Shown: positions 18,901 through 35,146, numbered from the stretch's first letter. The stretch is 64,000 nt of DNA from Saccharophagus degradans 2-40 (GCF_000013665.1 NC_007912.1:4399684-4463683), one strand, 5' to 3'. The notes: generated by a model from the sequence alone, not told the origin. Numbers and translations are program-made.

Positions 18901-21420
18901 AAGTGACGCTACGGTGACAGATTCACCGGCCACCATCACTTTGTAATTGTTAAAGTTAGGCACCATGCGAGAGTGGGCAGTGCCTGCTGCATCAGTAATG
19001 GAAATTTCTCTAAAATAACCGCTACCGCTATCAATGAGGTAATTACTTTTTAGTAACAAATCCATTAAGAACAGTGCTGAGCGAATATTAATAGAGCTTT
19101 CACTGGTAAGCGTGCGACCAAACAACGTTGAAGGTACAGAAGACGTTAACCCTCGCGCTACACGGTCACGTGCACTGATGTAATCAGGCGCGGCTGGTGT
19201 AGTTGCACTGCCTAATACTAAGGTGCGGTAGTCGGTAGCGACTTCTGGGTAAACATCTAATAGAACATTTACTAAATCAAAATTCACACCCTGCTGGAAT
19301 TCAGCACGCTGGATAGCAGACTGCACAGCGTTGGGGGCAAATTGTGCGTAAAAACTTAAACGCTCGGTTAATAGTGCCGCCGTTTCTGTAGCAGAAGTAC
19401 CTAAGGTTAAGCTAAGTGCTCGCACAAGCTCTGAGCTGCTTATTACATCAGCACCACCGGCTAAGGGGGTTAAGCGATCATTAAATATTGGGAACCCTTC
19501 TGGCGTTAAATGCACAGATTCAGTTGCCCAAGTAAAGCTGCTGGCAAGTACAGATGCCAAACGCTTCACTTTAATAGTGCTGTCTTTGTTCGCTACCAAT
19601 TTTGCAACAACCGCTTGCGACACTAAGCTCGAGTCTTCTAAACGGCGCGACAATTGATGGTAAAGGCGCACGCGGTCAACCAAGTTGAAATCCGCTTCGC
19701 TGGGTACTGCATCGGGGTTAGTAATATTAGCAAAGGCACTATCTAAGTTAGCCTGAAACTCTTCTTCACTTAACCCACCCATTAAGCGTGGAATTAAATC
19801 GGTAAAGGCAGGCACATAATAAAGTGGTGGCTGCGGTACACCGTTATCATCCAGTACGCCAAGGGCTGCGTCTGGGTCGGCGGTGTATTTACTGGTTACC
19901 TCTAAATCACCCTCACCTATTTTAAATAAACGGATATTGCGATTACCAAAACCGCGGCTACCGGGTAATAAATTATTGGGGATGTGAGCCGGCGCATTTA
20001 AGTTGATTGCAACCACACCTGCGTCGTTGGCTTCGTTTGTTTCTACAATTACCGCCAAGCCCATACTAATAAAGAAGCGCTGAAGGGTTTGCGTTAACTG
20101 ACGATTACGCTCTGCCTCTGCAGCAGCTAGAGCTGCACTTGCATCGGCACCATCTTCTAAGTCAAACAATTCGTTCAGGCTACCGCTTACTTCGGCTTCG
20201 GTAATTTTAGCTTGCGACTCTTCGGCTATTTGTTCGTTTAGCGTCGCTTCCAAGCCAGAAAGTAAACCTTGCTGCTCACTGTCTAATGAAGAGCTTAAAG
20301 TACTTTCTTCATCTTCGACAACTTCGTCAGCTTTTACTACCGAATTTTGCAGCTCAATAAGTTCCTCGTCGGATACAGTTTCACTAGTTAGTAAAGCATC
20401 TAATGACCTAACTTCGTCAACGGAGGCCTGCACCTGCATTTCGCTTTCCTGCTGGGCAATAACACTAGCAACCGATTGCCCCTCTGGAATTTCGATGACA
20501 CTATCTTCAGCCTCTTCAATAACACGCGCAATTTCTTGCGATACCGTTGAAATTACCGATTCTGTTAGCGTGGCTACCGTTTCTTCAGAAAAGCCCAATT
20601 CATTAAGCGATTGAATTGACGTTTTAATTTGATCAACAATTGTTTTAACTACACGGTGAACAATTGGGTCGACGGTTACAGGCTTAGGAAGATTCGTTTC
20701 CTCGTCAACATCGTTAGGGTCGGCAATCGATTGAATTGCCTGTGCTGTTTGCGATTCACCTTCACCGCGTACGATTAAAGCGCGTACTGCTATGCGCCCC
20801 AAAGCTCTAAACGCAGCAAGCACGTCATCTTCAGAAGTCTCGGCAGTAACAAGCCCGCGCGCAATTAAATAAGGGCGCACATCCGCAACCGTTACTGAGT
20901 ATGCACCGTTCTCATCGGTTCGCACCGTTGCAATCGGGTTGGCAAAATTCACATCGGACAACAAGAAGAGCGAGACCAACGCACTGGCTGCCACCATGTC
21001 ATCGCGCGTTAGAGTGTCGCCTGCTCGGCTTAACTTTTGCGATTTGCTCATTTTGGCGATCGCATCAGAAGGAGCCGAAAGCTTGCGAACCACTTTGGTT
21101 TGCGTAGCGCTTTCTGTTGGGTAAGTAGCAACCGTACCAGATAAAGACACCTTAGATTGTGGTTCTGGTTCCGGTTCCGGTTCAGGCTCTGGTTCCGGCT
21201 CTGGCTCTGGCTCTGGCTCTGGCTCAGGTTCTGGTTCCGGCTCAGGTTCTGGCTGTGGCTGGGGCTCTGGTTGCGGTTCTGGCGTGGTGACACCGCCGCC
21301 ACCTCCGCCACCTCCGCCGCCGCAACTTGAGAGCGATAAAATCGTACCCGAGGCGATGAGCAAGATAAGCATCACCCTCACGACTTTCCTCAGAAAGCTT
21401 CCAACCACATTTTCATTCAT
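12910..21420 (-). CDS. Giant (2836 aa) cell-surface lipoprotein with a poly-Gly/(PE)n linker and thrombospondin type-3 Ca-binding repeats; putative adhesin
   Basis: The lipobox is LSLSSC, followed by G10 and [19 protein letters not shown].... There are 5 tandem [12 protein letters not shown] units plus [33 protein letters not shown] (TSP3 DxDxDGxxDxxDNCPxxxNxxQxDxD signature). It is Asp/Gly/Thr-rich throughout. It is one uninterrupted 8.5-kb ORF. All plus-strand ORFs inside it are antisense artefacts. Confidence 0.85.
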
Positions 21421-23181: not shown

Positions 23182-24273
23182 ATGGACTGGGAGAAAGCCT
23201 ACGCTTTTATACTTACCCTTACCGCGGTGGATTATGCGGTAATTGTGGTTAACCTGCTATTAATTGCGTTTGCCCGCCCACTGCTTAAGCGCTATACCGC
23301 CGAAAATGTACCCGAAACTACCTTTGCCTTTCGCGTAAACCTGTTGCGCGGCCTAAATTTGGTAATACTACTGGTGTATAGCTACGAAGATTTTTACAAG
23401 CCCGTGGCAGAAAACAGCGGCGGAGTAAAATTTTTAGGCACCATTCTTATATTCTACTTGTGCTACCTTTCCAATTTTCTCTCCCAGCATTACATTCAAA
23501 AGCTTTACGGCAAAGCGCGGGTAATAAACGATAAAACCATTTATATAGAAACTTACCAAACCCGACTGTTAAGTATTTTAGCGGCTATATTCATTACGAT
23601 TATTGGCATTATTTCTATTGTTAAACAGCTGGGTTTCGATTCGCTGTTAGAAGCAGGGGGCGTACTGGGTTTTATTGGTGTAATGCTTGCGCTTACCCAG
23701 GGCGCATGGGCACCAGATATTATTAGTGGATTAATATTTTTAAACAGTACCCAGTTCGAAGAAGGCGATATTGTAGAAATAGACAACGGCATTATTGGGC
23801 GGGTATATAAAACTAAGTTATTTCATACGGAAATTCTAAACCTAACCAACAACCACCGCATTATGATTCGCAACTCAAAGTTGCGAGACAATGTTATACA
23901 CAATCTTTCTAAATTCGCCTCGCCCAAAGGCCTGCGAGAATGCCTAAGTTTTAATATTGGTTACGACGTGGCAATAAAAGACGTTAAACACCTGTTAAGC
24001 ACCGCCTACCAACGCGCCATAGACCAGAAAATCCCCCTAGAAGGCCAACACGACCCAGATATAAAACTACTAGAAACCGGCGACCACGCAGTGACCTGGG
24101 GCATTTTATTTTACGTAAAATCGGTAGATAAAATTGTGCCCATTCGCCGAGATTTTCGCGAAATTATATTAGCCACATCAATTGAAATGGATATTTCGCT
24201 AGCGACGCCTTTGACCCATGTTTTTAAGGGGGAAATTTTTGGAACTAGTGGACAGATAACAGATAACAGATAA
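23182..24273 (+). CDS. Mechanosensitive ion channel, MscS family
   Basis: TM helices are followed by the conserved MscS beta-domain (...GAWAPDIISGLIFLNSTQFEEGDIVEIDNGIIGRVYKTKLFHTEILNLTNNHRIMIRNSKL). The 3' end and stop lie inside a heptanucleotide repeat. Confidence 0.85.
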   Translation: MDWEKAYAFILTLTAVDYAVIVVNLLLIAFARPLLKRYTAENVPETTFAFRVNLLRGLNLVILLVYSYEDFYKPVAENSGGVKFLGTILIFYLCYLSNFLSQHYIQKLYGKARVINDKTIYIETYQTRLLSILAAIFITIIGIISIVKQLGFDSLLEAGGVLGFIGVMLALTQGAWAPDIISGLIFLNSTQFEEGDIVEIDNGIIGRVYKTKLFHTEILNLTNNHRIMIRNSKLRDNVIHNLSKFASPKGLRECLSFNIGYDVAIKDVKHLLSTAYQRAIDQKIPLEGQHDPDIKLLETGDHAVTWGILFYVKSVDKIVPIRRDFREIILATSIEMDISLATPLTHVFKGEIFGTSGQITDNR

Positions 24274-24321
24274 CAGATAACAGATAACAGATAACAGATA
24301 ACAGATAACAGATAACAGATA
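24252..24321. repeat. Microsatellite (ACAGATA)x10, heptanucleotide tandem repeat
   Basis: The sequence gacagataacagataacagataac... was read directly. It overlaps the last 7 codons and the stop of the MscS gene. Confidence 0.95.
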
Positions 24322-24372: not shown

Positions 24373-24951
24373 CTAGCTTCTGGTGGCTGTTTTTCTATTT
24401 AGGTAAGCGTAGAGAACGCCGGCTAGGGCGCCGAATAAGTGGGCTTCGAAGGATATGTTTGGGCGGCCGGGCAGTACGCCGAAAATCATACCGCCGTACA
24501 ATAAAACTACGCCAACAGCGATTACAATATCTAGCACGCGCCGCTGGAATACCGCCATGGCAATGGCAAGCGACCACAGGCCAAATATCCAACCACTCGC
24601 GCCTATATGCAGGCCGCCACGCGCAAATAGCCACACTAACAAGCCACTCACTACAATAATAAACAGGCTACTGCGGTAAAAAAACGGTACACCGCGTAAT
24701 AAACACAAGCTGCCAAAAATTGCCATGCCAAGCAAATTATTGGCAAGATGGTAAGTACTACCGTGTAAGAACGGCGATGTAAATATATGCAATAACGATT
24801 GCGGGTCGCGCGGCTGTATTCCCCAGCCGGCGAAACACCCACCCGTAACAATGTGCGCTACATGTACAAGTATTAACACCGCCAATACAGCGCCCAAAGT
24901 CCGAAACCCCGTGCGCAGCCGATACTTAAAACGAGAAAAGCTAGCCCTCAC
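24373..24951 (-). CDS. Rhomboid-family intramembrane serine protease
   Basis: Multi-TM protein. The catalytic GxSG is HIGASGWIFGL and the TM6 His is AHLFGALAGVLYAY. It lies 15 bp downstream of the giant AAA+ gene on the same strand. Confidence 0.8.
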   Translation of the reverse strand: MRASFSRFKYRLRTGFRTLGAVLAVLILVHVAHIVTGGCFAGWGIQPRDPQSLLHIFTSPFLHGSTYHLANNLLGMAIFGSLCLLRGVPFFYRSSLFIIVVSGLLVWLFARGGLHIGASGWIFGLWSLAIAMAVFQRRVLDIVIAVGVVLLYGGMIFGVLPGRPNISFEAHLFGALAGVLYAYLNRKTATRS

Positions 24952-24966
24952 TTTTAATAAGCTCGG

Positions 24967-27900
24967 TTACGTCGCGGGCTTATCAAGGCGATTATTTTTA
25001 ACCTGCGCTTCCAATTCGCGCAGGCGGCTAGATACTTCACTCATTTTTTCGTGCGTGCGCAAATCTATGTCTAGCTTTTTATCCATACTGCGCACTAGCG
25101 GAAAAATGCTGTGCTCAATGGTTTCAGCCAATACACTTAATATTTTATCTAAGCCAGGCACAGGCTGGTTCACCACCTCTACTTTAGGCGCCTCTGCAGG
25201 TTTATTTAAACCCGAAGCCAGCGCATTTAAGCCATCACCAAACTTACCAAGCGCTAACCGGAGCAACTTGCTATCGCGCTGTGCTTTTTTAACCGCTGCA
25301 TCATCATTGGCAGCAGCAAGCATTTCTTGCGCGCGCGATTCGGCAGTTGTCGCAATGTGATTGACGCCCTGCACCAAATCCACCAACTGCGCCACCACTT
25401 TTTGGCCAGTGTCGGCATCGTCGCCGCCCATAGCTTTGTTACGTAAAAAGTCTGCTTTAATTTCCTGCCAACGCTGGGTTTGCTCATCGGTCATATTGCC
25501 GCGCAACTCAGCTAACTTAAGTAAGTTTTCTTCTGCTCCACCGGTTAACAATTGCGCTTCGCCAAGGTAGTGATCTTGAATAAGCTGCATAAGCTCTTGG
25601 TTATTCATCACTGCCGATACCTTCTCCCCCATTTTATTCATGTTGCGGTAGCTACCCTGCAACTTAAAAGGCGGTTCGGTGCGATACTTATCCGCTTGGG
25701 CAGCAGAAATAATATATTGCTGGTTAATTTTAAGAATCACATCGCGAATAGCGAACATTTTGCGCAGCACATCGACTATTTCGTTAATTTCTGCACCACT
25801 GTATTGATGCTTTAAGTCGGTGGTTGCAACGTCTTTGCCCTCTGCTAATTTAATTAGCAAATACACATCGGCAATATCGCGTGCAGCCAAAGGTGCCAAC
25901 ACAGGGTTGGAGGTTAAGCTATTTTCGATGTAACTCATGGCAAACTGCTCGTCCATACCACCCAGCACATCACCTAGGTTGTAAATATCGGCGCGGTTAG
26001 CCAACATATCTGGAATTTTAAATACTTCACCAGATTCAGTGTATGGGTTACCAGCCATCACTACGCAGAATTTTTTACCGCGCATATCGTAAGTTTTGGA
26101 CCGGCCTTTCCAAATGCCTTCTATGCGGCGCGTGCCATCACACAGCGAAATAAACTTCTGCAAAAACTCTGGGTGCGTGTGCTGAATATCATCCAAATAC
26201 AACATCACGTTGTTGCCCATTTCTAACGCTAGGTTAAGCTTGTTCAATTCTTGCCTTGCGGTTGCGTTGGGTGCTTGCTCTGGGTCTAACGACAACACAT
26301 CGTGGCCTAATGACGGGCAATTAATTTTCATAAAGATTAAGCCAAGGCGGCTAGCCACGTATTCCATCAGTGTGGTTTTACCGTAACCGGGTGGCGAAAT
26401 CATCATCAACAAGCCCATCAAATCGGTGCGCTTGTTTTCGCCCACCGTGCCCATCTGCTTGGCGAGGTTATCGCCAATTATGGGTAAATAAGCTTCATTA
26501 ATTAGGCGGTTGCGCACAAACGAACTAAGTGGTCGCGGTTTAAATTCCTGCAAGCGCAATGCATTGCGCTCGCGCTCCGCTATAGTTTGGCGCACCGCTA
26601 GGTATTCGCGGTAGCCTTTTACAAAAACGGTGCGATGGTAATCTAAACGCAAGAAGAACTCATCGACAGCTAACGATAAACGTCTATCTACTATACGTTT
26701 GTGGTCGCCCATTAAGCCGTCTATTCGCAACTGTAGATCGGCCTCAGTTGGACGCCGGTCTATACGCTCGTCAGCATTGATCATAGCGGCAGCTTCTGGG
26801 ATATACCGCTCCAATTCGGTTAGCTTGCGCTCTTTAACCATGGCCGCCAACCACGCACACGAAAGGTTCCAGCGCTCTGCAGGCCAGCCCATCATTTTTT
26901 CTAACGCAACTTGGAACCGGCGCCAGCTATCGTCGTCGAGCGCGCGCTTTAATTCTTCAGTTAATAGGCTCGCATATTTACTACCTATAAACTCTGTGCG
27001 CTCTCGGCCCAATTCACACACTAAGTAATCGGCTGCGCGTCGCAGTTCTATGTCTTCTGCAGCTATAGGGTGGTAAGTTAAAAACTCACGCATTGCTGCG
27101 TAGACTTCATCCACTAAGAACTGATGCGCTTCGTTGCTGGCAAAATACTCGCGCATACGCGCAGCCGATTGCGCACGCTCGCCCCAGGTTTCATAGGTGA
27201 GACGTTTATTTTGTAGCTGGTCAGATATACGTTGGATATTCGCCCAAAACACTTGCGCCAAGCCCCTGCTTTTGGGGTCGAACACTAACAAATCTGCGCT
27301 TTCCATTGCCGGCACTATTGCCTGCAAAATTTTTACTGCATCGTGATCGTGAATGCCTTTTTCGTAACCCTCTTTGTAGCGTGGCGTCGCGAATTCGCGC
27401 ACCAAGCTGAGCGCTGCGTTCTCATCCTGTAGCGTGAGGTTGAGCTTCTCTAAACTTAAACCCGCTTCTTGTAATTCAGCTGCACGAATAATAGTGGCAG
27501 CGAGAAACTCCGCCCGGTAAACCGTGTCGCTTTCAGATTCGAGCGATACCTGCCAATAGGGCTTTAATGCTAGTAGCGCTTCGTCTTCGATACTTTCAAA
27601 ATAATCTGTACCTGTTAAGTGGCAGCTCAGCCCTTCGCCACGGGGGATAATGGTGAGATCTAGCTCCTGCGTGTTAACGCTAAATTTATGGCGCGGGCCA
27701 AGCTTAATAACAGAACCGCCGCCTTCATAGATATCGGATTTATCGCGCAATACACGCTGTGATTGCTCTTTAATCGCTTTGAACTTGGCTTCAATGTCAT
27801 CTGCCTTAACCGCTGCGTTTAGCTCGCGCAACTGCTCAACAAATTCGCGAACTTTGTGCACCATAGTATCGGCAGCAAAGTACGCGTTCATTTTATCGGG

Positions 27901-30303
27901 CTCGGTAAATTTATTTGCACGCTTTTCTATACTTTTTAGTACGCGCTCTGCTGCGTCCGCTAACGAGTGTGCTCTGCGCTCGCGCTCGTCGAGCAAACGC
28001 TGCTTGTGGGACTCAAAGGTTTCGTAGATTTCTTCGCGCTTGGCCATAATATCGGCCAAAAACTGATCCAAGTGACTAAACTGCGATTCAAGCTCTTCCA
28101 ACTGCACCAAAAGGCGCGACATTTGTTCTTCGCAGCTTTCTGGGGTGGTAGCCAACCCAAGTGCGTTAGTAATACTTTGCGTAAATAATTTAAATTGGGC
28201 CGAGAACTCCGCCACGGCCTCTGCCGACCCCAAGCCCTTCTGTTTGTGTCGCGCGTCGGCTTTGCTTTGGTTGAGTTTCGAGTACACCTCGGAGATGGCA
28301 TCGATAATACGCGTACGTAAAGTCGCATCATCTACTTTTAATGTAGAAAGCAGTTCTGATAGCAAATCTAAGCCGCTGGCTGTTTTTTCTATCGTTTCTA
28401 AAACGGGCTTTAATTCGGCGATCGTTTGCGCCTCTTCTGCCTCAGCATTTAAGCTTTCTATTTTATCGTAGTAGGGTAATAACGCATTATCGCTAGAAAG
28501 AAACACAACCGTTCTTTCACTTAAGCTAGCCTGCGCCTGCTCGAGCTCTTGCCCCATTTTTTCTATAGCGGCCACATTGATGTAGCGATAGCTTTTTATG
28601 GTTGCTAAATGGCCGGCGTGCTGGCGCAATTGATCGAGGGCGTCGACATATTCCTCGGCGGTTTCCCAAGAGGACGAGCGAATAGCTTCAATTAATTTCT
28701 TGTGCTTAGAAGTGGCAGTAGCAAGTGCTTCGTCTGACTGCTTGCGAATACTTTCTACTTTGGCGAATTCATCAACCGCCAATTCCGCCGTTGCGGCTAT
28801 TTCGCGTAACTCGGTTTGAATATTAGTTAACCCTTGCTGAGTTTTATCTAAAACCCAGTAGTGATCATCGAATACTTTTAGGGCACTGCGGGCTAGTTCT
28901 TCATACACCCGTACCGATACCGATTGATTATTTACAGCACGGCAAATACTAAATAAATCGGAGATACCGCGCACAAGGGCAGCATTGCCTATGCGACCGA
29001 AAAAGGTTTGGCTTGCCGGTGCGTTGCTTGCAAATTCATCACTTACATAGGGGGTTTGCCATATTTGCATGGGGTGCACGCGCGTTGGTTCCCCTTCTGC
29101 AGAAAAGATAACCAAACGACCGTCGTCGGCTAAAGCGTAGCCGTGACCAAATATTGGGTTGAGCAATTTTTTATCAATCATGTTGTACGCCAATAGCGCT
29201 ACAACACCTTCACCCGGCTCATAAAACACATAGAGCACATCTTCGCCATTGGGCGAGCGAATGACACGCTTAAACCGCAAACCATCTGTTTGCTCTTCAA
29301 AGGTTTTGTACTCACCATTTTGTAAATAGTAGCCGCCGGGAAAAACGATACCGTGATCTTCAGGTAGCTGTACGCACGAAGCACCCACTGCATCTATGCG
29401 CTTTACACTACGGATTAGGGTATTAAATACGAAGTAACGCCATACAGTTTCTTTATATGGCAATACCTTAATAAGAATGAGGTCGCCTAGTTTGGCGTAA
29501 TGAAATTCTGCATCGTCGATAGACTGTGTTTTGTCTTCAACCGATTCGGAATAAATACCTTTACCATCTTCGGTATTATTTTCTATTTTTATAGTTAGGT
29601 CGCCGCCAACAGTTTCAACGAATACCTTATCTAAAATATTTACATGGGGATGGCGACCATGCACGGTATCTTCACGGGTGCATTGCGTCCATTCAAAGTC
29701 GTAAGCGGGGGGCAATTGAATATCGCGCTCACCGCGATTATCGATATATTCTACGGTATCGCCGGTGGCCGATACGGCCCAACGAAATACGCGAATATCC
29801 TCTAAGCGCTCACCAATTTGAAAGCCCATTAATAGCTTACCGTCTTTTACGGTTAGCTCGACAAGTTTGGTGGCTTTGTAGTAGCGATATAATTCAGAAA
29901 AATCTTGTTTGAAGCGAGTATCGGCTAGAAATGTACCTTCCTTACTCTGCTCATGCAGCTCTAACGCATCGCCCTCGCCCGTAAGACTAAATAACGCGAA
30001 TACATCTTCTACGAGCGTTTCTTTTTTAAGGCCAATAAAAACGTTATAGCCAAATAAAAGGTATTTACCTACCTGTACTATGTCGCGCGCAATACAGTTA
30101 TTTTCGGTGCGAACACGTACGCGTGCAGCTACGGTCATTTCTGAGCTGCCAAATTCATCCAAGCGTGCCTGGTTTATTTGGCGGGTGGCTTCTTCTAGCT
30201 TGTTTCCCTGCTCGAGCAAGCGTTTGCGAATAACCTCATAGGCTCCACCTTCTGCAACCGCATTATCCACGAGTTGTTCTTGCTCATTTATTTCTGCAGA
30301 CAT
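24967..30303 (-). CDS. Giant (1778 aa) protein with a beta-rich N-terminal region, a long central coiled-coil/alpha region and a C-terminal AAA+ ATPase (AAA_5/MoxR-like)
   Basis: Walker A is MMISPPGYGKTTLMEY. Walker B is NVMLYLDDIQH. Sensor/Arg region: VVMAGNPYTESGEVFKIPDMLANRADIY. A single uninterrupted 5.3-kb ORF. The rest is not recognised. Confidence 0.8.
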   Translation of the reverse strand: MSAEINEQEQLVDNAVAEGGAYEVIRKRLLEQGNKLEEATRQINQARLDEFGSSEMTVAARVRVRTENNCIARDIVQVGKYLLFGYNVFIGLKKETLVEDVFALFSLTGEGDALELHEQSKEGTFLADTRFKQDFSELYRYYKATKLVELTVKDGKLLMGFQIGERLEDIRVFRWAVSATGDTVEYIDNRGERDIQLPPAYDFEWTQCTREDTVHGRHPHVNILDKVFVETVGGDLTIKIENNTEDGKGIYSESVEDKTQSIDDAEFHYAKLGDLILIKVLPYKETVWRYFVFNTLIRSVKRIDAVGASCVQLPEDHGIVFPGGYYLQNGEYKTFEEQTDGLRFKRVIRSPNGEDVLYVFYEPGEGVVALLAYNMIDKKLLNPIFGHGYALADDGRLVIFSAEGEPTRVHPMQIWQTPYVSDEFASNAPASQTFFGRIGNAALVRGISDLFSICRAVNNQSVSVRVYEELARSALKVFDDHYWVLDKTQQGLTNIQTELREIAATAELAVDEFAKVESIRKQSDEALATATSKHKKLIEAIRSSSWETAEEYVDALDQLRQHAGHLATIKSYRYINVAAIEKMGQELEQAQASLSERTVVFLSSDNALLPYYDKIESLNAEAEEAQTIAELKPVLETIEKTASGLDLLSELLSTLKVDDATLRTRIIDAISEVYSKLNQSKADARHKQKGLGSAEAVAEFSAQFKLFTQSITNALGLATTPESCEEQMSRLLVQLEELESQFSHLDQFLADIMAKREEIYETFESHKQRLLDERERRAHSLADAAERVLKSIEKRANKFTEPDKMNAYFAADTMVHKVREFVEQLRELNAAVKADDIEAKFKAIKEQSQRVLRDKSDIYEGGGSVIKLGPRHKFSVNTQELDLTIIPRGEGLSCHLTGTDYFESIEDEALLALKPYWQVSLESESDTVYRAEFLAATIIRAAELQEAGLSLEKLNLTLQDENAALSLVREFATPRYKEGYEKGIHDHDAVKILQAIVPAMESADLLVFDPKSRGLAQVFWANIQRISDQLQNKRLTYETWGERAQSAARMREYFASNEAHQFLVDEVYAAMREFLTYHPIAAEDIELRRAADYLVCELGRERTEFIGSKYASLLTEELKRALDDDSWRRFQVALEKMMGWPAERWNLSCAWLAAMVKERKLTELERYIPEAAAMINADERIDRRPTEADLQLRIDGLMGDHKRIVDRRLSLAVDEFFLRLDYHRTVFVKGYREYLAVRQTIAERERNALRLQEFKPRPLSSFVRNRLINEAYLPIIGDNLAKQMGTVGENKRTDLMGLLMMISPPGYGKTTLMEYVASRLGLIFMKINCPSLGHDVLSLDPEQAPNATARQELNKLNLALEMGNNVMLYLDDIQHTHPEFLQKFISLCDGTRRIEGIWKGRSKTYDMRGKKFCVVMAGNPYTESGEVFKIPDMLANRADIYNLGDVLGGMDEQFAMSYIENSLTSNPVLAPLAARDIADVYLLIKLAEGKDVATTDLKHQYSGAEINEIVDVLRKMFAIRDVILKINQQYIISAAQADKYRTEPPFKLQGSYRNMNKMGEKVSAVMNNQELMQLIQDHYLGEAQLLTGGAEENLLKLAELRGNMTDEQTQRWQEIKADFLRNKAMGGDDADTGQKVVAQLVDLVQGVNHIATTAESRAQEMLAAANDDAAVKKAQRDSKLLRLALGKFGDGLNALASGLNKPAEAPKVEVVNQPVPGLDKILSVLAETIEHSIFPLVRSMDKKLDIDLRTHEKMSEVSSRLRELEAQVKNNRLDKPAT

Positions 30304-30426
30304 ACCTAACGCATCCCTAATTATTTGTATCGCTTACAGCTATTCTTTTGGTTTAGACGGCGGCATATTCAAATTGCCGCTTACATGGGCGAAGCAATAC
30401 TACCTTGCTCGCCCAATTGGCTTGTG

Positions 30427-30675
30427 TTAGCCAGATATGCCTTCGATTTTTTTCGACAAGGCTGCAAGCTTAGCCTTCATTGCATCATCGACTTCGGCAG
30501 GTTTTATTTTGGCGACAATACTGCGTAAAACCCGCACTTCATTCTGATCAATTTCGCCATCCTTTTCTGCAATGGCAATAATTTTACCTAGCTCTTTTGC
30601 ATCTAACTTGCCGTCATTTGCAAAACATTCTATTGAGCGAAAAGACATTTCTAAATAATCGCGTGATTCCGTCAT
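30427..30675 (-). CDS. Small TerB-like protein (two A-x-DG-x-hD-x-x-E-h-x-x-h repeats)
   Basis: The translation FANDGKLDAKELGKIIAIAEKDGEIDQNEVRVLRSIV shows a duplicated ADG...E...L motif typical of the TerB / DjlA-N fold. The RBS aaggaa is present. It lies directly upstream of, and co-oriented with, the giant AAA+ gene. Confidence 0.5.
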   Translation of the reverse strand: MTESRDYLEMSFRSIECFANDGKLDAKELGKIIAIAEKDGEIDQNEVRVLRSIVAKIKPAEVDDAMKAKLAALSKKIEGISG

Positions 30676-30698
30676 AATTTATTCCTTTTTAAAAATAT

Positions 30699-30947
30699 TT
30701 ATTTGCCTTTGGGGATAATTTCGCCTTCAACTGGGGCAGGCTCTGGCTGCACATCGCCGGTAAAAGTTTTGAGTAGGCTTTCACCAAAAATGCCCACTAG
30801 CGCCCCTACACCTGCACCCAGTAAAGCAGTACTGGCAGTTTTATTATTTTGCGCCCCGGCCAATGCACCTAAACCCGCACCAATTGCCGTTGCCACACCT
30901 ACATCTTTATTAATAACTTTTTTGGTTATATCCATATTTATTCTCAC
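30699..30947 (-). CDS. Glycine-zipper membrane peptide (GAGLGALAGA...GAGVGALVGIFG)
   Basis: GxxxG zippers and a C-terminal PEPAPVEGE tail. The true start may be the ATG at 30933-30935 (MDITKK). Confidence 0.5.
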   Translation of the reverse strand: MRINMDITKKVINKDVGVATAIGAGLGALAGAQNNKTASTALLGAGVGALVGIFGESLLKTFTGDVQPEPAPVEGEIIPKGK

Positions 30948-31033
30948 TCGTCGCGCAGCTGGTGGCAGGCTCGTGTTTACCGCTCACGCCCCTGCCACGC
31001 GCATTTCTGGCAACGCCGCTACATTTCCCGCGA

Positions 31034-32968
31034 CTATTGCTGTGTTTCTACCACTGGTGCCTTGGTTGCGGCCTGAGCACCGGCAGACATCGTCATTACT
31101 TTTTCAAGTAACGCTTGTATGGTGCCGCTTTTACCCGCTAAGCCATCTACCGCCTTACCTATAGAAAGTGACTTGGCAAAGTTATCAAAGAAGTGCTCTT
31201 CACCGCCCACAATATCGATGTGTGCTTTTTGCAGTGCAGTTGCCAATACTTCGGCATTTTCTTTCGCGATTTCTTTACCAGCTTCGATAGACGCCAATGC
31301 TTCTTGGAAGGCCGTTTCTAGCGTCATGCGGAACTCTTCGTGCTCGCGCGCGCTTTCGCTCATTTTGCCCATCGCGTCAAATTTCTCGACTAAGCCATCT
31401 GCTTCAGCTTTAAATTGCTCGCGCGTAACGTCTGCTTTGGCCAAACCGGTTTCGCGTACCGCTTTCGCTTCGGCGTCGCCTTTCATTGCAATTACATTCG
31501 CTTCAGATTCACCTTGCGACTGAGTAACTCGCGCTGTGGCCAGTCCTTCTTTCTCCATTGCATCGGCTTTGGCTTCTTGCACCTTCGCTTCTGCTAAGCC
31601 GTGTGCAGCTTCTTCCGCCTGAGTACCCTCTGCCAATTTCTTCTTCGAATCCGCTTCTTTTGCTGCGGCTTCGAGATTAGCTTGCGCTAGAGTAGTTATT
31701 TCAATGGCTTTATGTTTGGCAGCAGCTTCTTGTGCCTCTGCATCTTTGGTTATTTTAACTTTCTCTTCTTCCGCTTTCGCTTCTGCTGCAAGCACTTGTA
31801 CCTGCTTAGTGCGGTCAGCTTCAGATACTTCACGCACTTCTTTGATTTTCTCTTCTTCGATAGCAACAGTTTTATCTACCGCTACTCGCTCGCGCACAAC
31901 ATTAGCAATTTCTTTTTTCTCTACTTCAATTGCTTTTTCGGCTTCAATTCGCTGCAATTCTACTTCGCGTTCGCGCGCTACAACTTCGAGATCTCTTGCT
32001 CGCGTTACTTTTTCTATTTCAATCACTACAGCGCGCTGGCGATTTTGCTCTGCCACTTCAATTTCACGCTTTTGATTTTCCGATTGCACTTGCAGATCTT
32101 GCTCCACCATAATGGTGGCCATTTCTGCCTTTTTGCGCTCTTCTTCTTGCACGCGTTTAGTTTCCGCTTCTTCACGCGCTTTAATGGTTTCCACCTCACG
32201 CTTTTGGCGAGCTTCGGCATCTGCCTGCTGACGCTCAAGCTCTAGCATCGCTTCTACGGTAGATACGTTCTTTTTCTTAATGGCCAGCTCTTCGTCGCGC
32301 GAAAATATGTTGGTTTGAATATTTTGCGTAGCTGTTAGCTCGGTAATCTTGCGAATACCTTCTGCATCAAGAATATTTGCTGGGTCCAGCGCGCTTTTTG
32401 GCGTTTGCTCTAAGTAATCAATTGCAACATCTTCTAGAGCGTAGCCGTTTAGATCGTTGCCAATTACTTCAATAATTTTATCGCGAAATTGCTGGCGATC
32501 TTCAAACAATTTAACGAAATCTATTTGCTTACCTACGGTCTTCAATGCTTCAGAGAATTTAGCATTAAATAATTCGTGAACAGCGTTTTTATCCGATGCA
32601 CGATTAGCACCTAACGACTTAGCCACTTTTAGAACATCTTCTGGCGTTTCGTTTACGCGCAAATAAAACGCAACAGTTATATCTGCTCGCATATTATCGG
32701 CACAAATTAGACCTTCTTTACCGCGCCTATCCACCTCTAGGGTAATAAGCGAAATACGCATCAATTCCTTTTTATGGATAACCGGCAATACCCAGGCACC
32801 GGTAAAGAACACTTTTGGGCGTGCGCTCATGTCATTTTTTATTAACGCTACGCCTTGTTCTACTTTTACGTAGAAGGCTTTGAACAGAGCCATTACACCA
32901 AGCAGCACACCAAATAGAATGCCGACTCCAATCAATATTGCCATAAATAGCGGGGCATGTTCTGCCAT
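31034..32968 (-). CDS. yqiK: Flotillin-family SPFH/band-7 protein (YqiK-like) with a long EA-rich coiled-coil
   Basis: An N-terminal TM anchor, then an SPFH domain (…VALIKNDMSARPKVFFTGAWVLPVIHKKELMRISLITLEVDRRGKEGLICADNMRADITVAFYLRV…), then an extended E/A/K/R coiled-coil (EAEEKVK..., flotillin repeats). Confidence 0.85.
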   Translation of the reverse strand: MAEHAPLFMAILIGVGILFGVLLGVMALFKAFYVKVEQGVALIKNDMSARPKVFFTGAWVLPVIHKKELMRISLITLEVDRRGKEGLICADNMRADITVAFYLRVNETPEDVLKVAKSLGANRASDKNAVHELFNAKFSEALKTVGKQIDFVKLFEDRQQFRDKIIEVIGNDLNGYALEDVAIDYLEQTPKSALDPANILDAEGIRKITELTATQNIQTNIFSRDEELAIKKKNVSTVEAMLELERQQADAEARQKREVETIKAREEAETKRVQEEERKKAEMATIMVEQDLQVQSENQKREIEVAEQNRQRAVVIEIEKVTRARDLEVVAREREVELQRIEAEKAIEVEKKEIANVVRERVAVDKTVAIEEEKIKEVREVSEADRTKQVQVLAAEAKAEEEKVKITKDAEAQEAAAKHKAIEITTLAQANLEAAAKEADSKKKLAEGTQAEEAAHGLAEAKVQEAKADAMEKEGLATARVTQSQGESEANVIAMKGDAEAKAVRETGLAKADVTREQFKAEADGLVEKFDAMGKMSESAREHEEFRMTLETAFQEALASIEAGKEIAKENAEVLATALQKAHIDIVGGEEHFFDNFAKSLSIGKAVDGLAGKSGTIQALLEKVMTMSAGAQAATKAPVVETQQ

Positions 32969-32994
32969 GTTTATCTCCTTATATAAGCCTTTGC

Positions 32995-33675
32995 TTAATT
33001 ATTTAAAAAATCTTTTTCTGATATTACGCGGTAAGTATTACCTACAGCGTCGTATTCCAATAAAATTACTCTATCGCCACGGGCAAAGGTTTCATCCTTA
33101 TAACTCCGCACCTTTACGATTAAACCCGCACCACCATCTTCCACGGTGGCCTCGCCGAATGTTTTATCTACCCGACCAGTACGCACTATGCCCACCTGAC
33201 CCACAATGTGTTTTTCTACATGTTGATCTGCCTCTAAAAAAAGCGGCCTTAGCGGGCGTATTATTTGCGCAGTTACCATTGCCGACATGTAAAGCACACC
33301 AATAAAAATGGGTATACCTACAATAAACTCCAACAATGCCCCTGGCACCCAAGGGAAAACAAAATACACAACCGTAAAACAGGTAAGCCAACCTATTAGC
33401 GTAATAAGGCTTAACACAATAGTGAATGGCACACCGTTAAGACCAAGCTTAAGTAGCAGGCCCGCCATAACATTTAAGTTATCTATACTGTCTGCTGCAC
33501 CGCCGTCGTCTACGCCGAAGTTGAAATCTAACGCATCTATCTCGACCAGCCCTAACACCGCAAATATCCAATAGAACACACAAAATGCGAGCAGCACGGT
33601 AAAGATAACCGTCGGAAACGACGAACAAATCTCGTAAAACGGGTCCATGGTTTCTGTGAGTAGTGCGGCAAACAT
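32995..33675 (-). CDS. yqiJ: YqiJ/NfeD-like membrane protein (partner of flotillin; C-terminal OB-fold)
   Basis: Multi-TM N-terminal half plus a C-terminal beta-rich region (VGQVGIVRTGRVDKTFGEATVEDGGAGLIVKVRSYKDETFARGDRVILLEY). It is in the conserved position upstream of the flotillin gene. Confidence 0.6.
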   Translation of the reverse strand: MFAALLTETMDPFYEICSSFPTVIFTVLLAFCVFYWIFAVLGLVEIDALDFNFGVDDGGAADSIDNLNVMAGLLLKLGLNGVPFTIVLSLITLIGWLTCFTVVYFVFPWVPGALLEFIVGIPIFIGVLYMSAMVTAQIIRPLRPLFLEADQHVEKHIVGQVGIVRTGRVDKTFGEATVEDGGAGLIVKVRSYKDETFARGDRVILLEYDAVGNTYRVISEKDFLNN

Positions 33676-33735
33676 AGGGGCATCCTTCTAAGCAAAGTGA
33701 GCAAAACACTGCCCAGCAATAAAATACATCGATAG

Positions 33736-34425
33736 TTACGACTTTTTGTTTTTAAGTCTATCCAGCACATCCTGCGCTCTAGCACCGCTTGCTGCAATCC
33801 CTGCTTTTTCGAGCTTGTCTTGCAATGAGTCTTCGCGAGAGTCCTCTGCTAATTCGGCCGCGGCCTTAATTTGAGCAGATTTAAGCGCTTGCTTTTCTTT
33901 AATGCGGTCGAGCGAATCCATAGCGGTACGCAATTTAGAATTTGAGCCATTGTGACGCTCAGCAACCGCTACTTGCGCGCGCTGAACATTTTCGGTGGCT
34001 TTCACCGTATCTATTTGCTGCTTAATACGCTTTATATTTTGCTCGGCTGCTAAAATAGCTTTGCGCAAATCGTTAGCACTCGCCGCAAACTGGGCCGCCG
34101 ATTTCTTCTCGGTATCCAGCTGGTTTTCTAGGTCGGCTATTTTTTCGGCCACTTCTAGCGCTAATGCATCGTCGCCTTTTTCCATAGCTTTCACTGCATA
34201 ACCTTCGTATTCCGCAATGCTTTCGCCAATGCTCGACGCTTTTTCTTCCGCCAGCTTTTGGCGTGCCAAAATTGTGGTTAAGCCATCTTTAGAATGCTTT
34301 AACTCAGCCGTTGCGTCGCGAACTTCTTGATCGAGAATACGCAACGCCTGACTGTCAACAATAAGCTCGCCCGCTTCGTTTACACCGCCACGTAACGCAG
34401 TAACCATTTTGGACCAAATATTCAT
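33736..34425 (-). CDS. PspA/IM30 (ESCRT-III superfamily) protein, YjfJ-like
   Basis: The N-terminus MNIWSKMVTALRGGVNEAGE... matches the PspA/Vipp1 start. It is an all-alpha coiled-coil protein of 229 aa, downstream of a YjfI-like gene as in the E. coli yjfIJ arrangement. Confidence 0.8.
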   Translation of the reverse strand: MNIWSKMVTALRGGVNEAGELIVDSQALRILDQEVRDATAELKHSKDGLTTILARQKLAEEKASSIGESIAEYEGYAVKAMEKGDDALALEVAEKIADLENQLDTEKKSAAQFAASANDLRKAILAAEQNIKRIKQQIDTVKATENVQRAQVAVAERHNGSNSKLRTAMDSLDRIKEKQALKSAQIKAAAELAEDSREDSLQDKLEKAGIAASGARAQDVLDRLKNKKS

Positions 34426-34436
34426 GATGCTCTCCT

Positions 34437-34895
34437 CTAGCCTTTGGCTGCAATTGAGGGGGTTAAGTATTCGCCATACGCTTCAGTAGCATTTATTACA
34501 TTCGAAGCGAGGGTTTCTATTTCAAAAATAATGTTTGGCAAAATAGACGCTGCACTTAATGCGCCGAACATATGGTAATAATCTTTGCCGTCACTCAATG
34601 TATCCAAACTAATAGTGGATAGCGGGAAGTACTTATGGGTGCGCAAAATAGTATCGTTAAACTTGGCTATATCGCTCACCTCGTCGGCACCCCACAGTAC
34701 CGCCTCCACGATTATTTGCTCACCCGCCACAGTTAAAAACAAAGGCAGATCGCCGTATTCCAACATAACAATGTGAAGTGCAGGCTCTACACCATCAATA
34801 AGCTCTGCCGTGGCGCTGCCCGAGGTAAATAGCTCTTCATTTAGCAGTGCCTCATGCAGGCTCTGAGTAGTCCAAGTCTTAATCGGTGCTGTCAT
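34437..34895 (-). CDS. YjfI-like (DUF2170-type) protein. The ORF track gives a longer form to 35072 with a basic 59-aa N-terminal extension.
   Basis: An internal ATG at 34893-34895 is preceded by a strong RBS (aaaggagaagggg) and begins MTAPIKTWTTQSLHEALLNEE. It lies upstream of pspA-like as in yjfI-yjfJ. The extension MKAKSSAHYQREYRQRLRDMGLVKKEVWIL is in frame with no stop, so a fused N-terminal domain cannot be excluded. Confidence 0.55.
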   Translation of the reverse strand: MTAPIKTWTTQSLHEALLNEELFTSGSATAELIDGVEPALHIVMLEYGDLPLFLTVAGEQIIVEAVLWGADEVSDIAKFNDTILRTHKYFPLSTISLDTLSDGKDYYHMFGALSAASILPNIIFEIETLASNVINATEAYGEYLTPSIAAKG

Positions 34896-35089
34896 AACCC
34901 CTTCTCCTTTTCCGATAACGTTTACTGGTTGTGGTTGCCGCAACAGCTTCTCGTACACCGTTAGCTGCTTGGCGTTTGCAGGCAGTATCCAAACCTCCTT
35001 TTTAACCAACCCCATATCCCGTAGGCGCTGGCGATACTCACGCTGATAATGTGCAGAAGATTTTGCTTTCATGAATTAACCATATCAGA

Positions 35090-35146
35090 TTACATGTAAT
35101 ACGCAAGAAATTTTACATGTAATTAATTACAAATATTACATGTAAC
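35090..35146. promoter_or_regulatory. Array of three perfect 10-bp palindromes TTACATGTAA spaced 23-24 bp apart (putative operator)
   Basis: Copies at 35090-35099, 35113-35122 and 35137-35146. They lie immediately upstream of the yjfI-like/pspA-like operon and divergent from the MFS gene. Confidence 0.6.

What the first reader, a model, noticed from the sequence alone, without database searches (positions are those of the whole stretch)
24373..35146. Membrane-stress/remodelling super-cluster: TerB-like + 1778-aa AAA+ giant + rhomboid, adjacent to Gly-zipper, flotillin (YqiK), NfeD-like (YqiJ), PspA/IM30 and YjfI
Seven co-oriented minus-strand genes encode proteins that all act on or at the membrane: an ESCRT-III-superfamily PspA, an SPFH flotillin with its NfeD-like partner, a rhomboid protease, and a TerB-like protein. 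They also include a huge protein whose only recognisable module is a C-terminal AAA_5/MoxR-type ATPase (Walker A SPPGYGKTT, Walker B LYLDDIQH) behind ~1300 aa of beta-rich plus coiled-coil sequence. TerB with fused or adjacent AAA+ ATPases has been predicted computationally as a membrane-linked stress/defence complex. PspA, flotillin and YjfI modules are each known separately. Their tight linkage to a giant AAA+ protein in one locus suggests an uncharacterised, ATP-driven membrane-repair or phage/envelope-stress response machine.
Basis: partly seen in the sequence, partly recalled or inferred. Interest (0 to 1): 0.75.

Follow-up and report, generated by a model that had tools for sequence, protein, structure and literature searches.

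The report
Known PspA–flotillin–giant ATPase membrane-stress operon
This is the Saccharophagus degradans copy of a membrane-stress operon already described in Proteobacteria (the Pseudomonas aeruginosa "bac" cluster), so the gene cluster is real and conserved but not new, although how its giant ATPase works remains unknown.

Summary
Eight (not seven) co-oriented minus-strand genes at 24373-35072 encode YjfI/BacA, a YjfJ-type PspA, a YqiJ-like NfeD protein, a YqiK-type flotillin, a Gly-zipper peptide, a short TerB-like protein, a 1778-aa giant (beta-propeller, coiled coil, AAA+) and an active-looking rhomboid.

It is not undescribed. Ravi et al. [quoted passage not shown] In P. aeruginosa it is the co-transcribed bacABCDEF operon, where bacE is the giant.

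In 80 related loci plus 4 distant ones, the giant always follows NfeD-like plus flotillin (72/72 and 76/76 where the flank exists). YjfI-PspA is present in 48 loci, rhomboid in 22, a PLD hydrolase in 23 and TerB-like in about 14-16. The invariant unit is therefore NfeD-flotillin-giant.

I found nothing in the papers I read on the following. BacA carries a conserved MazE-like N-terminal module. TTACATGTAA palindromes sit at fixed positions (-27/-50) around the promoter in gamma- and betaproteobacteria. This suggests BacA represses its own operon.

Verdict: new member of a known kind. The mechanism of the giant is inferred only.

The parts
35079..35145 (-). Promoter/operator region. Three exact TTACATGTAA palindromes lie at 35090-35099, 35113-35122 and 35136-35145, spaced 23 nt apart. 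A candidate sigma-70 promoter is TTGCGT (35101-35106), 16 nt, TATGGT (35079-35084). The -10 element ends 6 nt before the yjfI ATG, so the mRNA would be leaderless or nearly so.
   Evidence: these are the only exact copies in the 64-kb window, and 0 of 100 shuffles reach the observed count; 73 of 81 YYACATGTRR sites in 1.79 Mb of related loci lie within 150 nt upstream of the yjfI ATG, mostly at about -27 and -50. Two more are in the L008 promoter. One search shows the anchored alignment. The promoter hexamers and the leaderless start are read from the sequence and are inferred.
34437..35072 (-). yjfI/bacA, 211 aa. It has a conserved ~46-aa MazE-like N-terminal module, a variable linker, and a DUF2170 (CesT/Tir-like chaperone fold) domain.
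   Evidence: DUF2170 E=4.5e-53; NCBIfam NF050185 BacA 322 bits against a cutoff of 300; the BacA crystal structure 8q8o aligns only to aa 65-204; the N-terminal 46 aa are highly conserved, and 17 of 28 members hit PF11455 MazE-like (best E=7e-4). E. coli YjfI lacks both the extension and the palindromes.
33736..34425 (-). pspA/bacB, 229 aa. A YjfJ-type PspA/IM30 (ESCRT-III superfamily).
   Evidence: PF04012 E=1e-44; 37% identity to E. coli YjfJ, E=1e-38.
32995..33675 (-). NfeD-like/YqiJ-like membrane protein (bacC equivalent), 226 aa. Multi-TM N-terminal part and a soluble C-terminal beta domain.
   Evidence: TM segments; the family profile against E. coli YqiJ gives hhalign 93%, E=3e-7; present directly upstream of the flotillin in 72 of 72 loci that have enough flank.
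31034..32968 (-). YqiK-type flotillin (bacD/PaFlo3 equivalent), 644 aa. N-terminal TM segment, SPFH/Band_7 domain, long E/A/K-rich coiled coil, C-terminal domain.
   Evidence: Band_7 E=4e-9 on aa 1-235; 30% identity to YqiK, E=4e-47; one TM segment at aa 7-25; present in 76 of 76 loci with flank.
30699..30947 (-). Small Gly-zipper protein, 78-82 aa (the likely start is the ATG at 30935). Lineage-specific insertion.
   Evidence: Gly-zipper_YMGG 24.5 bits, below the cutoff of 28.9; no tblastn homologue in any of the 80 loci. Whether it is a real gene was not established.
30427..30675 (-). Short TerB-like cytoplasmic protein, 82 aa, with paired DGxLDxxE / DGxIDxNE motifs. Sporadic accessory of the operon.
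   Evidence: TerB E=0.031 for this protein; 8 of 12 homologues hit PF05099 (best E=5.8e-5); 16 tblastn matches, about 14 of them to intact ORFs. They lie either between the flotillin and the giant or downstream of the giant.
24967..30303 (-). Giant soluble ATPase (bacE equivalent), 1778 aa. In order: N-terminal helix; 6-7-bladed beta-propeller (DUF3686, aa ~57-417); long helical/coiled-coil region including DUF7902 (aa ~422-858); small beta domain (~873-905); helical region; AAA+ domain (aa ~1290-1470, Walker A 1303-1311, Walker B 1368-1375); helical/coiled-coil C-terminus.
24373..24951 (-). Minimal 6-TM rhomboid intramembrane serine protease, 192 aa. Last gene of the operon here.
   Evidence: PF01694 E=2e-20; not a rhombosortase (25 bits against a cutoff of 84). 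HxxxN, GASG and the TM6 His are conserved in all 20 linked homologues; its start overlaps the giant's stop by 4 nt in at least 8 loci; in L012 and L029 it has moved upstream of yjfI.

Best explanation
The locus is the S. degradans orthologue of the proteobacterial Bac / PspA-flotillin-AAA+ envelope-stress operon. It matches P. aeruginosa bacABCDE, ends in a rhomboid where P. aeruginosa has the PLD gene bacF, and has two small genes inserted.

Shown here:
- One conserved gene row.
- An invariant core of NfeD-like membrane protein, YqiK-type flotillin and the giant soluble beta-propeller/coiled-coil/AAA+ protein.
- Optional modules: YjfI-PspA upstream, and TerB-like, rhomboid, PLD or TelA downstream.

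Inferred mechanism:
1. Regulation. The operon is read from a sigma-70-type promoter whose -35 element is bracketed by TTACATGTAA palindromes. The MazE-like N-terminal module of BacA/YjfI binds them and represses its own operon. BacA's CesT-like domain binds PspA. When PspA is drawn onto damaged membrane, the BacA-PspA balance changes and the operon is derepressed. This is partner switching, analogous to PspA-PspF.
2. Effector. The NfeD-like protein and the flotillin build an SPFH scaffold on the cytoplasmic face of the inner membrane. The giant docks on it through its propeller and coiled coil. It uses ATP to remodel or disassemble the flotillin (and, where present, PspA) assemblies, or to extract client proteins from them.
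3. Accessory enzymes. The translationally coupled rhomboid, and PLD in other species, act on membrane proteins and lipids within that domain.
For: Identity:
- Pfam, NCBIfam and pairwise matches.
- P. paraeruginosa locus L025 has the same gene order, with the giant as the fifth gene and a PLDc_2 protein as the sixth.
- Ravi et al. describe the same architecture.
- RT-PCR shows bacA-F co-transcription.

Core triad:
- Flotillin in 76/76 and NfeD-like in 72/72 loci with available flank. YjfI-PspA in 48 of 72.
- The triad persists at 32-34% identity.
- The DUF3686 domain occurs in only one architecture.

Stress link, from the literature on P. aeruginosa:
- PA3731 rises on osmotic shock and with membrane-active S. 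aureus PSMs.
- PA3728-32 rise on phage infection.

Regulation:
- Operators sit at fixed positions in about 45 loci.
- The N-terminal module is MazE-like.
- The module and the operators are both absent in E. coli yjfI.
- A bacA::Tn mutant accumulates BacB-F 6- to 13-fold.
- AlphaFold2 predicts a BacA-BacB interaction with probability 0.981.

Giant:
- Soluble, with a beta-propeller and an AAA+ domain closest to MoxR-type ATPases.
- 50-80% identical across orders.

Rhomboid:
- Catalytic residues conserved and start overlapping the giant's stop.
Against: - No experiment or computation here shows any physical contact between the giant and the flotillin, NfeD-like protein or PspA.
- Both AF2 models are of only moderate confidence (pLDDT ~71), and the P-loop region is poorly modelled.
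- Walker B reads DD rather than DE, so hydrolysis may be slow or regulatory.
- The MazE-like match is weak (best E=7e-4; E=0.067 for the window protein). DNA binding by BacA is untested.
- Wallart et al. proposed a sigma-54 promoter for bacA. I found no sigma-54 consensus upstream of yjfI in the window, but I did not test the Pseudomonas site.
- The Tn effect in the bacA mutant could be polar read-through rather than loss of repression.
- The paFlo3 (flotillin) mutant has only marginal phenotypes.
Confidence: 0.75

Rival explanations
1. The giant is chiefly a Vps4-like recycling ATPase for PspA (ESCRT-III) polymers. The flotillin and NfeD-like protein only recruit it.
For: PspA is encoded two genes upstream in 48 loci. 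ESCRT-III polymers in archaea and eukaryotes need an AAA+ ATPase. Ravi et al. raise ATP-dependent remodelling for PspA-AAA+ associations.
Against: The giant persists without an adjacent YjfI-PspA in 24 of 72 loci, but never without the flotillin/NfeD-like pair. Pfam found no MIT domain. The AAA+ domain is closest to NorQ/CbbQ rather than to the classic Vps4 clade.
Confidence: 0.15
2. The cluster is an anti-phage (abortive infection or membrane-guarding) defence system.
For: PA3728-PA3732 are induced in phage-infected P. aeruginosa. The cluster contains TerB-like and TelA-type accessory genes and a large ATPase.
Against: No PADLOC family is hit apart from coiled-coil noise on PspA. The proteins are highly conserved across orders (50-80% identity), which suggests purifying selection on a housekeeping stress function. 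I saw no mobile-element features, and base composition is uniform. Induction by osmotic shock and by PSM peptides points to a general membrane-stress response.
Confidence: 0.06
3. The giant is a DNA repair ATPase, as databases name it, and lies next to the membrane genes by chance.
For: NCBI and UniRef call it 'DNA repair ATPase', and Pfam describes DUF3686 as 'ATPase involved in DNA repair'.
Against: Pfam and fold searches found no nuclease or DNA-binding domain. The membrane-gene context is invariant. The name appears to be inherited annotation; a full-text search for DUF3686 found no paper at all.
Confidence: 0.02
4. The region holds several independent transcription units (yjfI-pspA; nfeD-flot; small genes; giant-rhomboid) that are merely syntenic.
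For: There are gaps of 60, 86 and 123 nt between some genes. Many Pseudomonas loci have a strong hairpin with a T-run right after pspA, so transcription downstream of pspA may be attenuated.
Against: RT-PCR links all six bac genes in PA14, and BacB-F rise together in the bacA mutant. No credible internal promoter or terminator was found in the window: 6 promoter-like sites against 16.9 expected, and terminator-like sites at chance level. Gene order and strand are conserved across about 80 loci.
Confidence: 0.05

Closest known systems
P. aeruginosa bacABCDEF operon (PA3732-PA3727 / PA14_16140-16200; Mace 2008, Wallart 2024)
   Same: The first five functional genes have the same order and families: DUF2170 BacA, PspA BacB, short NfeD BacC, flotillin BacD/PaFlo3 and the DUF3686-AAA+ giant BacE. 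Identities are 53-65%, or 41% for the NfeD-like protein. Both share the dual palindromes in the bacA promoter.
   Different: The last gene here is a rhomboid, not the PLD hydrolase BacF. Two small genes (Gly-zipper and TerB-like) are inserted between the flotillin and the giant. There are three operator copies instead of two. The window lacks the strong hairpin after pspA.
CesT/Tir-PspA + band-7/flotillin + AAA+ (coiled coil + beta-propeller) + YqiJ/YuaF operon class of Ravi et al. 2024
   Same: All four defining components are present, and the abbreviated flotillin-YqiJ-AAA+ form is also seen among relatives.
   Different: That paper does not mention the rhomboid (zero occurrences). In the passages I retrieved from it, I also saw no mention of the TerB-like or TelA accessories, the N-terminal module of YjfI or the operators.
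E. coli yqiJK and yjfIJ(KLMC) loci
   Same: YqiK (30% identity), YqiJ (by profile), YjfJ (37% identity) and YjfI (36% over the DUF2170 domain) are the nearest named homologues.
   Different: In E. coli the two pairs lie in separate loci with no giant nearby. YjfI lacks the N-terminal module and the palindromes. yjfIJ is joined to polyamine-related genes instead.
SPFH scaffold with AAA+ and protease partners: HflK/C-FtsH, and the mitochondrial SLP2-PARL-YME1L (SPY) complex (own knowledge, not tested here)
   Same: The logic is analogous: an SPFH oligomer organising an AAA+ machine, and in the SPY complex also a rhomboid protease.
   Different: The giant has no protease domain and no TM anchor. 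Its AAA+ domain is MoxR-like rather than FtsH-like. The flotillin is expected to face the cytoplasm. No homology is implied.
MoxR-family AAA+ ATPases (NorQ, CbbQ, RavA)
   Same: These are the best structural matches to the ATPase domain. AAA_5 scores above its Pfam cutoff. An NP...R motif follows Walker B.
   Different: There is no VWA-domain partner in the operon. The protein is about five times larger. hhalign against RavA is not significant. Walker B reads DD.

Membership tests
Bac / CesT-PspA-flotillin-AAA+-YqiJ operon class (Ravi et al.; Wallart et al.) | A DUF2170/CesT-like YjfI gene immediately followed by a yjfJ-type pspA gene | tested here: met
   The gap between the two genes is 11 nt.
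Bac / CesT-PspA-flotillin-AAA+-YqiJ operon class (Ravi et al.; Wallart et al.) | A membrane protein with TM segment, Band_7, coiled coil and flotillin domain | tested here: met
   Band_7 E=4e-9; YqiK E=4e-47; N-terminal TM segment.
Bac / CesT-PspA-flotillin-AAA+-YqiJ operon class (Ravi et al.; Wallart et al.) | A multi-TM protein of the YqiJ/YuaF (NfeD-like) type | tested here: met
   hhalign 93%, E=3e-7 against E. coli YqiJ; TM segments. Pairwise BLAST and Pfam were negative.
Bac / CesT-PspA-flotillin-AAA+-YqiJ operon class (Ravi et al.; Wallart et al.) | [quoted passage not shown] | tested here: met
   It is 58% identical to the P. paraeruginosa fifth-gene product (L025).
Bac / CesT-PspA-flotillin-AAA+-YqiJ operon class (Ravi et al.; Wallart et al.) | A PLD (HKD) hydrolase as the last gene (optional; bacF in P. 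aeruginosa) | tested here: not met
   There is no PLD homologue anywhere in the window. It is present in 23 of 80 relatives. This feature is optional in the published definition.
MoxR / AAA_5 clade of AAA+ ATPases | Walker A and B motifs, a match to AAA_5, and a fold closest to MoxR ATPases | tested here: inconclusive
MoxR / AAA_5 clade of AAA+ ATPases | A cognate VWA-domain partner encoded nearby (typical, not universal) | tested here: not met
   No VWA domain appears in any operon protein or in the downstream ORFs of 56 loci.
TerB (PF05099) | A match to the TerB profile above the Pfam gathering score | tested here: inconclusive
   The window protein scores 15 bits against 24.4. Eight of 12 homologues hit TerB at E<=0.1, best 5.8e-5. 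The protein is about half the length of a TerB domain.
Rhomboid intramembrane serine proteases | Rhomboid domain with the HxxxN motif in TM2, the GxSG serine in TM4 and the histidine in TM6 | tested here: met
Rhombosortase (TIGR03902) | A score above the NCBIfam cutoff | tested here: not met
   25.2 bits against a cutoff of 84.
Classical Psp system (pspF-pspABC) | A sigma-54 promoter with a PspF enhancer-binding protein, and PspB/PspC partners | tested here: not met
   There is no sigma-54 consensus upstream of yjfI. Pfam finds no PspB, PspC or PspF among the operon or flanking genes.
ESCRT-III/Vps4 machinery | [quoted passage not shown] | tested here: not met
   Pfam finds no MIT domain in the giant. 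The N-terminus is a propeller. The activity itself cannot be tested with these tools.
MazE-like / DUF3018 antitoxin DNA-binding module (PF11455), for the BacA N-terminus | A profile match above the gathering score, and DNA binding | tested here: inconclusive
   13.6 bits against a cutoff of 22 for the window protein. 17 of 28 homologues hit it, best E=7e-4. DNA binding cannot be tested here.

The most novel reading that the evidence does not exclude
Two untested readings remain open.

1. The giant beta-propeller/coiled-coil/AAA+ protein is a dedicated ATP-driven remodeller of bacterial flotillin assemblies. On this reading it would be a motor that assembles or disassembles an SPFH scaffold, or pulls clients from it. 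Through the translationally coupled rhomboid and PLD, it would form a bacterial analogue of the mitochondrial SLP2-PARL-YME1L proteolytic hub.

2. BacA/YjfI is a hybrid repressor-chaperone. Its MazE-like N-terminus binds TTACATGTAA operators, and its CesT-like domain senses free PspA. That would give a sigma-54-independent, partner-switching Psp circuit transcribed as a leaderless mRNA.
Probability: 0.3. Interest if true: 0.7.

Novelty: new member of a known kind. Interest (0 to 1): 0.4.

Why it matters
The operon class is widespread in Gamma- and Betaproteobacteria. In P. aeruginosa it affects biofilm formation, rhamnolipid production, swarming and virulence. Its largest and best-conserved component still carries a misleading 'DNA repair ATPase' label, and nothing is known of its biochemistry.

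This analysis narrows the question. The giant's constant partners are the flotillin and the NfeD-like protein, not PspA or TerB. That points experiments at SPFH-scaffold remodelling. No dedicated ATPase for bacterial flotillins has been described, to my knowledge.

The conserved operators and the MazE-like module on BacA offer a concrete, cheap test of how this Psp-like system is switched on. They may also explain the derepression seen in bacA mutants.

Tried and rejected
- Full-length flotillin against Pfam and PDB gave nothing. The coiled coil probably triggers the bias filter. This was resolved by scanning the N-terminal 235 aa and comparing with YqiK.
- The NfeD-like protein against Pfam, against YqiJ by BLAST, and as a profile against PDB was negative. 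Only the family profile matched YqiJ, by hhalign.
- The giant against PDB by sequence gave only Walker-A-level matches to Cdc48, RuvB and Vps4, and nothing for aa 1-1200.
- hhalign of the giant family against E. coli RavA was not significant.
- Foldseek long alignments to Elp1, IFT-A, clathrin and dynein have TM-scores of 0.07-0.12. I do not claim a coat-protein (propeller plus solenoid) relationship.
- A sigma-54 promoter search upstream of yjfI found nothing.
- The sigma-70 and terminator scans gave no more sites than chance.
- The hairpin between pspA and nfeD in the window is not significant (z=+0.7).
- No terminator hairpin follows the rhomboid.
- PADLOC gave no defence-system hits.
- The profile of the BacA N-terminus against PDB found no relative.
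- In loci that lack YjfI-PspA, the genes upstream of nfeD are heterogeneous, with no alternative conserved partner.
- Full-text searches for 'DUF3686', and for 'DNA repair ATPase' together with flotillin, found no papers.

Full report
**1. What is in the sequence**

The minus strand between 24373 and 35072 carries eight consecutive ORFs, separated by gaps of 11, 60, 26, 86, 23, 123 and 15 nt. From the 5' end they are:
- YjfI/BacA, 34437-35072: DUF2170, E=4.5e-53; NCBIfam 'biofilm formation regulator BacA', 322 bits against a cutoff of 300.
- PspA, 33736-34425: PF04012, E=1e-44; 37% identical to E. coli YjfJ.
- A 226-aa multi-TM protein, 32995-33675.
- A 644-aa protein with one N-terminal TM segment, 31034-32968.
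- An 82-aa Gly-zipper-like ORF, 30699-30947.
- An 82-aa acidic protein, 30427-30675.
- The 1778-aa giant, 24967-30303.
- A 192-aa rhomboid, 24373-24951: PF01694, E=2e-20.

The giant is 99% identical to a protein that NCBI names 'DNA repair ATPase [Saccharophagus degradans]'. That identifies the source organism.

**2.

- 'Flotillin' and 'NfeD-like/YqiJ' are correct but not obvious.
  - The full-length 644-aa protein hits nothing in Pfam or PDB, probably because of its long E/A/K-rich coiled coil.
  - Its first 235 aa hit Band_7 (E=4e-9). It aligns with E. coli YqiK at 30% identity over 453 aa (E=4e-47).
  - The 226-aa protein matches neither Pfam nor YqiJ by BLAST. A profile of 36 family members matches E. 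coli YqiJ by hhalign (93% probability, E=3e-7).
- 'TerB-like' is a sub-threshold call for the window protein (15 bits against 24.4). It gains support from its family, where 8 of 12 homologues hit PF05099 (best E=5.8e-5). It is roughly half a TerB domain.
- The giant's Walker A (SPPGYGKTT) and Walker B (LYLDDIQH) are present and invariant in the family.

**3. Anatomy of the giant**

It has no TM segment.

An AF2 model of aa 1-1050 (pLDDT 71.6) gives the following layout:
- an N-terminal helix;
- a beta-rich domain at aa 57-417;
- about 430 aa of long helices;
- a small beta domain at aa 873-905;
- more helices.

Foldseek against PDB returns beta-propellers for the beta-rich domain, including the DCAF1 WD40 domain, Ski8, the prolyl oligopeptidase propeller and cd1 nitrite reductase.

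No relative has a solved structure. A search of 1.84 billion representatives with the N-terminal 500 aa finds only 731 clusters. Essentially all full-length members are 1600-1900 aa, so this domain occurs in one fixed architecture.

**4. Conservation of the neighbourhood**

Eighty loci encoding relatives at 50-69% identity were fetched. They come from Cellvibrionaceae, Pseudomonas, Xanthomonadales, Xenorhabdus, Gilliamella, Comamonadaceae, a zetaproteobacterium and Longimicrobium. tblastn with the window proteins gave these results:
- The flotillin is directly upstream of the giant in 76 of 80 loci. The NfeD-like gene is upstream of that in 72 of 80. Every missing case is a contig that ends there.
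- YjfI plus PspA are present in 48 loci. They are absent from 24 of the 72 loci that have the NfeD-like gene (four of those contigs are cut too close to judge), and what lies upstream in the rest is heterogeneous.
- The rhomboid is present in 22 loci. In 20 it lies directly after the giant, often with a 4-nt start/stop overlap. In two it has moved to a divergent position upstream of yjfI.
- A PLD (HKD) hydrolase is present in 23 loci, either after the giant or after the rhomboid.
- The TerB-like gene gave 16 tblastn matches, about 14 of them to intact ORFs.
- TelA appears in four loci.
- The Gly-zipper ORF appears in none.

Four loci encoding members only 32-34% identical in the N-terminal domain were also examined:
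- Three of them (two being copies of one contig) keep a ~205-212-aa gene and a ~650-710-aa gene directly upstream of the giant.
- In the fourth, the contig is cut inside the gene upstream of the giant.
- For L083 and L087 the small gene matches the NfeD-like profile (hhalign 97% and 99.6%).
- The L083 large gene matches the window flotillin (E=9e-65).
- The L085/L086 large gene carries a Band_7 hit.
- TelA lies nearby in two of these contexts.

The invariant unit is therefore NfeD-like, flotillin and giant. PspA/YjfI, TerB-like, rhomboid, PLD and TelA are optional modules.

**5. Comparison with the literature**

Ravi et al. (mSystems 2024, preprint 2020) describe operons that combine the CesT/Tir-like YjfI-PspA pair with three other components:
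- a protein with TM segment, band-7, coiled coil and flotillin domain;
- a 3TM protein of the YqiJ/YuaF type.

They note that a PLD hydrolase is sometimes added, and that abbreviated flotillin-YqiJ(-AAA+) operons are more widespread.

In P. aeruginosa the same genes are the bac cluster:
- It was first described by Mace et al. 2008.
- Wallart et al. 2024 extended it to a co-transcribed bacABCDEF operon, and BacB-F accumulate 6- to 13-fold in a bacA transposon mutant.
- In the P. paraeruginosa locus L025 the fifth gene is the 1746-aa giant and the sixth is a PLDc_2 protein. So bacE is the giant and bacF is the PLD.

Other reports in P. aeruginosa:
- PA3731 rises on osmotic shock and with S. aureus PSM peptides.
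- PA3728-32 rise on phage infection.
- PA14_16190 is listed among RsmA-regulated proteins.
- The flotillin mutant (paFlo3) has only about 20% less biofilm.
- A BacA-BacB interaction is predicted by AlphaFold2 with probability 0.981.

The 'super-cluster' is therefore a known kind. What remains unknown is its biochemistry, above all that of the giant. The 'DNA repair' name has no support that I could find.

**6. Additional observations**

(a) BacA/YjfI in this operon type has an N-terminal extension of about 46 aa, with consensus KSSAhYQRxaRqRLReQGLVKKEVWILPE.A..L...E..LR.P.
- It is far better conserved than the linker that follows it.
- 17 of 28 members weakly hit the MazE-like antitoxin family PF11455 (best E=7e-4).
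- E. coli YjfI lacks it.
- The BacA crystal structure 8q8o covers only the part equivalent to aa 65-204.

(b) Immediately upstream of yjfI the window has three exact TTACATGTAA palindromes, 23 nt apart. These are the only exact copies in 64 kb.
- Across 1.79 Mb of related loci, 73 of 81 YYACATGTRR sites lie in yjfI promoters, mostly at about -27 and -50 from the ATG. Two more are in L008.
- They bracket a TTGACA-like -35 element. A TAnnnT -10 element ends only 6-8 nt before the ATG, with no Shine-Dalgarno sequence.
- This looks like a sigma-70 promoter giving a leaderless or near-leaderless mRNA, under operator control.
- No YYACATGTRR site lies near nfeD in any locus that lacks yjfI-pspA, and E. 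coli yjfI has no palindromes.
- I infer that BacA represses its own operon through this module. That would explain the derepression in the bacA mutant. The CesT-like domain binding PspA would provide partner switching.
- None of this is tested. Wallart et al. instead proposed a sigma-54 promoter, and I found no sigma-54 consensus in the window.

(c) The rhomboid is a distinct minimal subfamily of about 185-190 aa with all catalytic motifs conserved. It is the commonest gene immediately after the giant.

**7. Most likely mechanism (inferred)**

The NfeD-like protein and the flotillin form an SPFH scaffold on the inner membrane. The soluble giant docks on it and uses ATP to remodel the scaffold (and PspA polymers where present) or to extract client proteins. 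The rhomboid and PLD act on membrane proteins and lipids in that domain.

The nearest functional analogies are the HflK/C-FtsH complex and the mitochondrial SLP2-PARL-YME1L complex. This comparison rests on my own knowledge. It is an analogy only and does not imply homology.

Rival readings are listed separately with their evidence: Vps4-like recycling of PspA only, phage defence, DNA repair, and unrelated neighbouring units.

**8. Verdict**

The cluster is a real, conserved membrane-stress unit, but it is already described, and the TerB emphasis is misplaced.
- Novelty: a new member of a known kind, with a rhomboid-ending, TerB-like-bearing layout.
- Interest is moderate. It comes mainly from the uncharacterised giant ATPase and from the testable autorepressor/operator model.

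Noticed in passing
window 35090-35145; loci L001-L078 about 27 and 50 nt upstream of yjfI: Conserved TTACATGTAA-type palindromes bracket the -35 element of the yjfI/bacA promoter. They co-occur with a MazE-like N-terminal extension on BacA. The -10 element ends 6-8 nt before the ATG, which suggests a leaderless mRNA.
   Followed up: yes
window 24252-24321: A perfect heptanucleotide tandem repeat, (ACAGATA)x10, covers the last codons and the stop of the plus-strand MscS-like ORF (23182-24273) and part of the convergent gap before the rhomboid. Because the period is 7, copy-number slippage would change the channel's C-terminal tail.
   Followed up: partly
L020, L023-L026, L031, L033, L038, L056, L070, L073, between pspA and nfeD (e.g. 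L025 ~7023-7077): Many Pseudomonas loci have a strong GC-rich hairpin directly after pspA/bacB, followed by a T-run in L025. It may be an attenuator giving more BacA/BacB than downstream products. The window has no significant hairpin there.
   Followed up: partly
L083 13001-14221; L085/L086 13502-14608; L044, L055, L057, L061 about 1 kb downstream of the giant: TelA (toxic anion resistance, PF05816) recurs next to the giant in distant and Xanthomonadales-type loci. Together with the TerB-like gene, this links the operon to Ter-type stress components.
   Followed up: partly
window 23182-24273 (+); L012 ~15755, L029 ~15698, L002 ~2606, L078 15518-18964: MscS-family mechanosensitive channel genes lie next to the cluster in the window and in four related loci. 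The association is weak and may be chance.
   Followed up: partly
window 12910-21420 (-): A 2836-aa ORF has no Pfam domain apart from a low-complexity match. It has an N-terminal hydrophobic segment and is not conserved next to the cluster in other loci.
   Followed up: no
window 31034-32968: Methodological point. The full-length flotillin gives zero Pfam hits even at E<=10, while its N-terminal 235 aa score above the Band_7 cutoff. The coiled coil probably triggers HMMER's bias filter.
   Followed up: yes
proteins P0068 and P0074: Pseudoteredinibacter isoporae appears to encode two paralogues of the giant (1772 and 1786 aa). Some genomes may therefore carry two copies of the system.
   Followed up: no
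window 24967-30303; database names: The names 'DNA repair ATPase' and 'ATPase involved in DNA repair' (Pfam DUF3686, NCBI, UniRef) have no support in domain content, fold or genomic context. They look like propagated annotation.
   Followed up: yes
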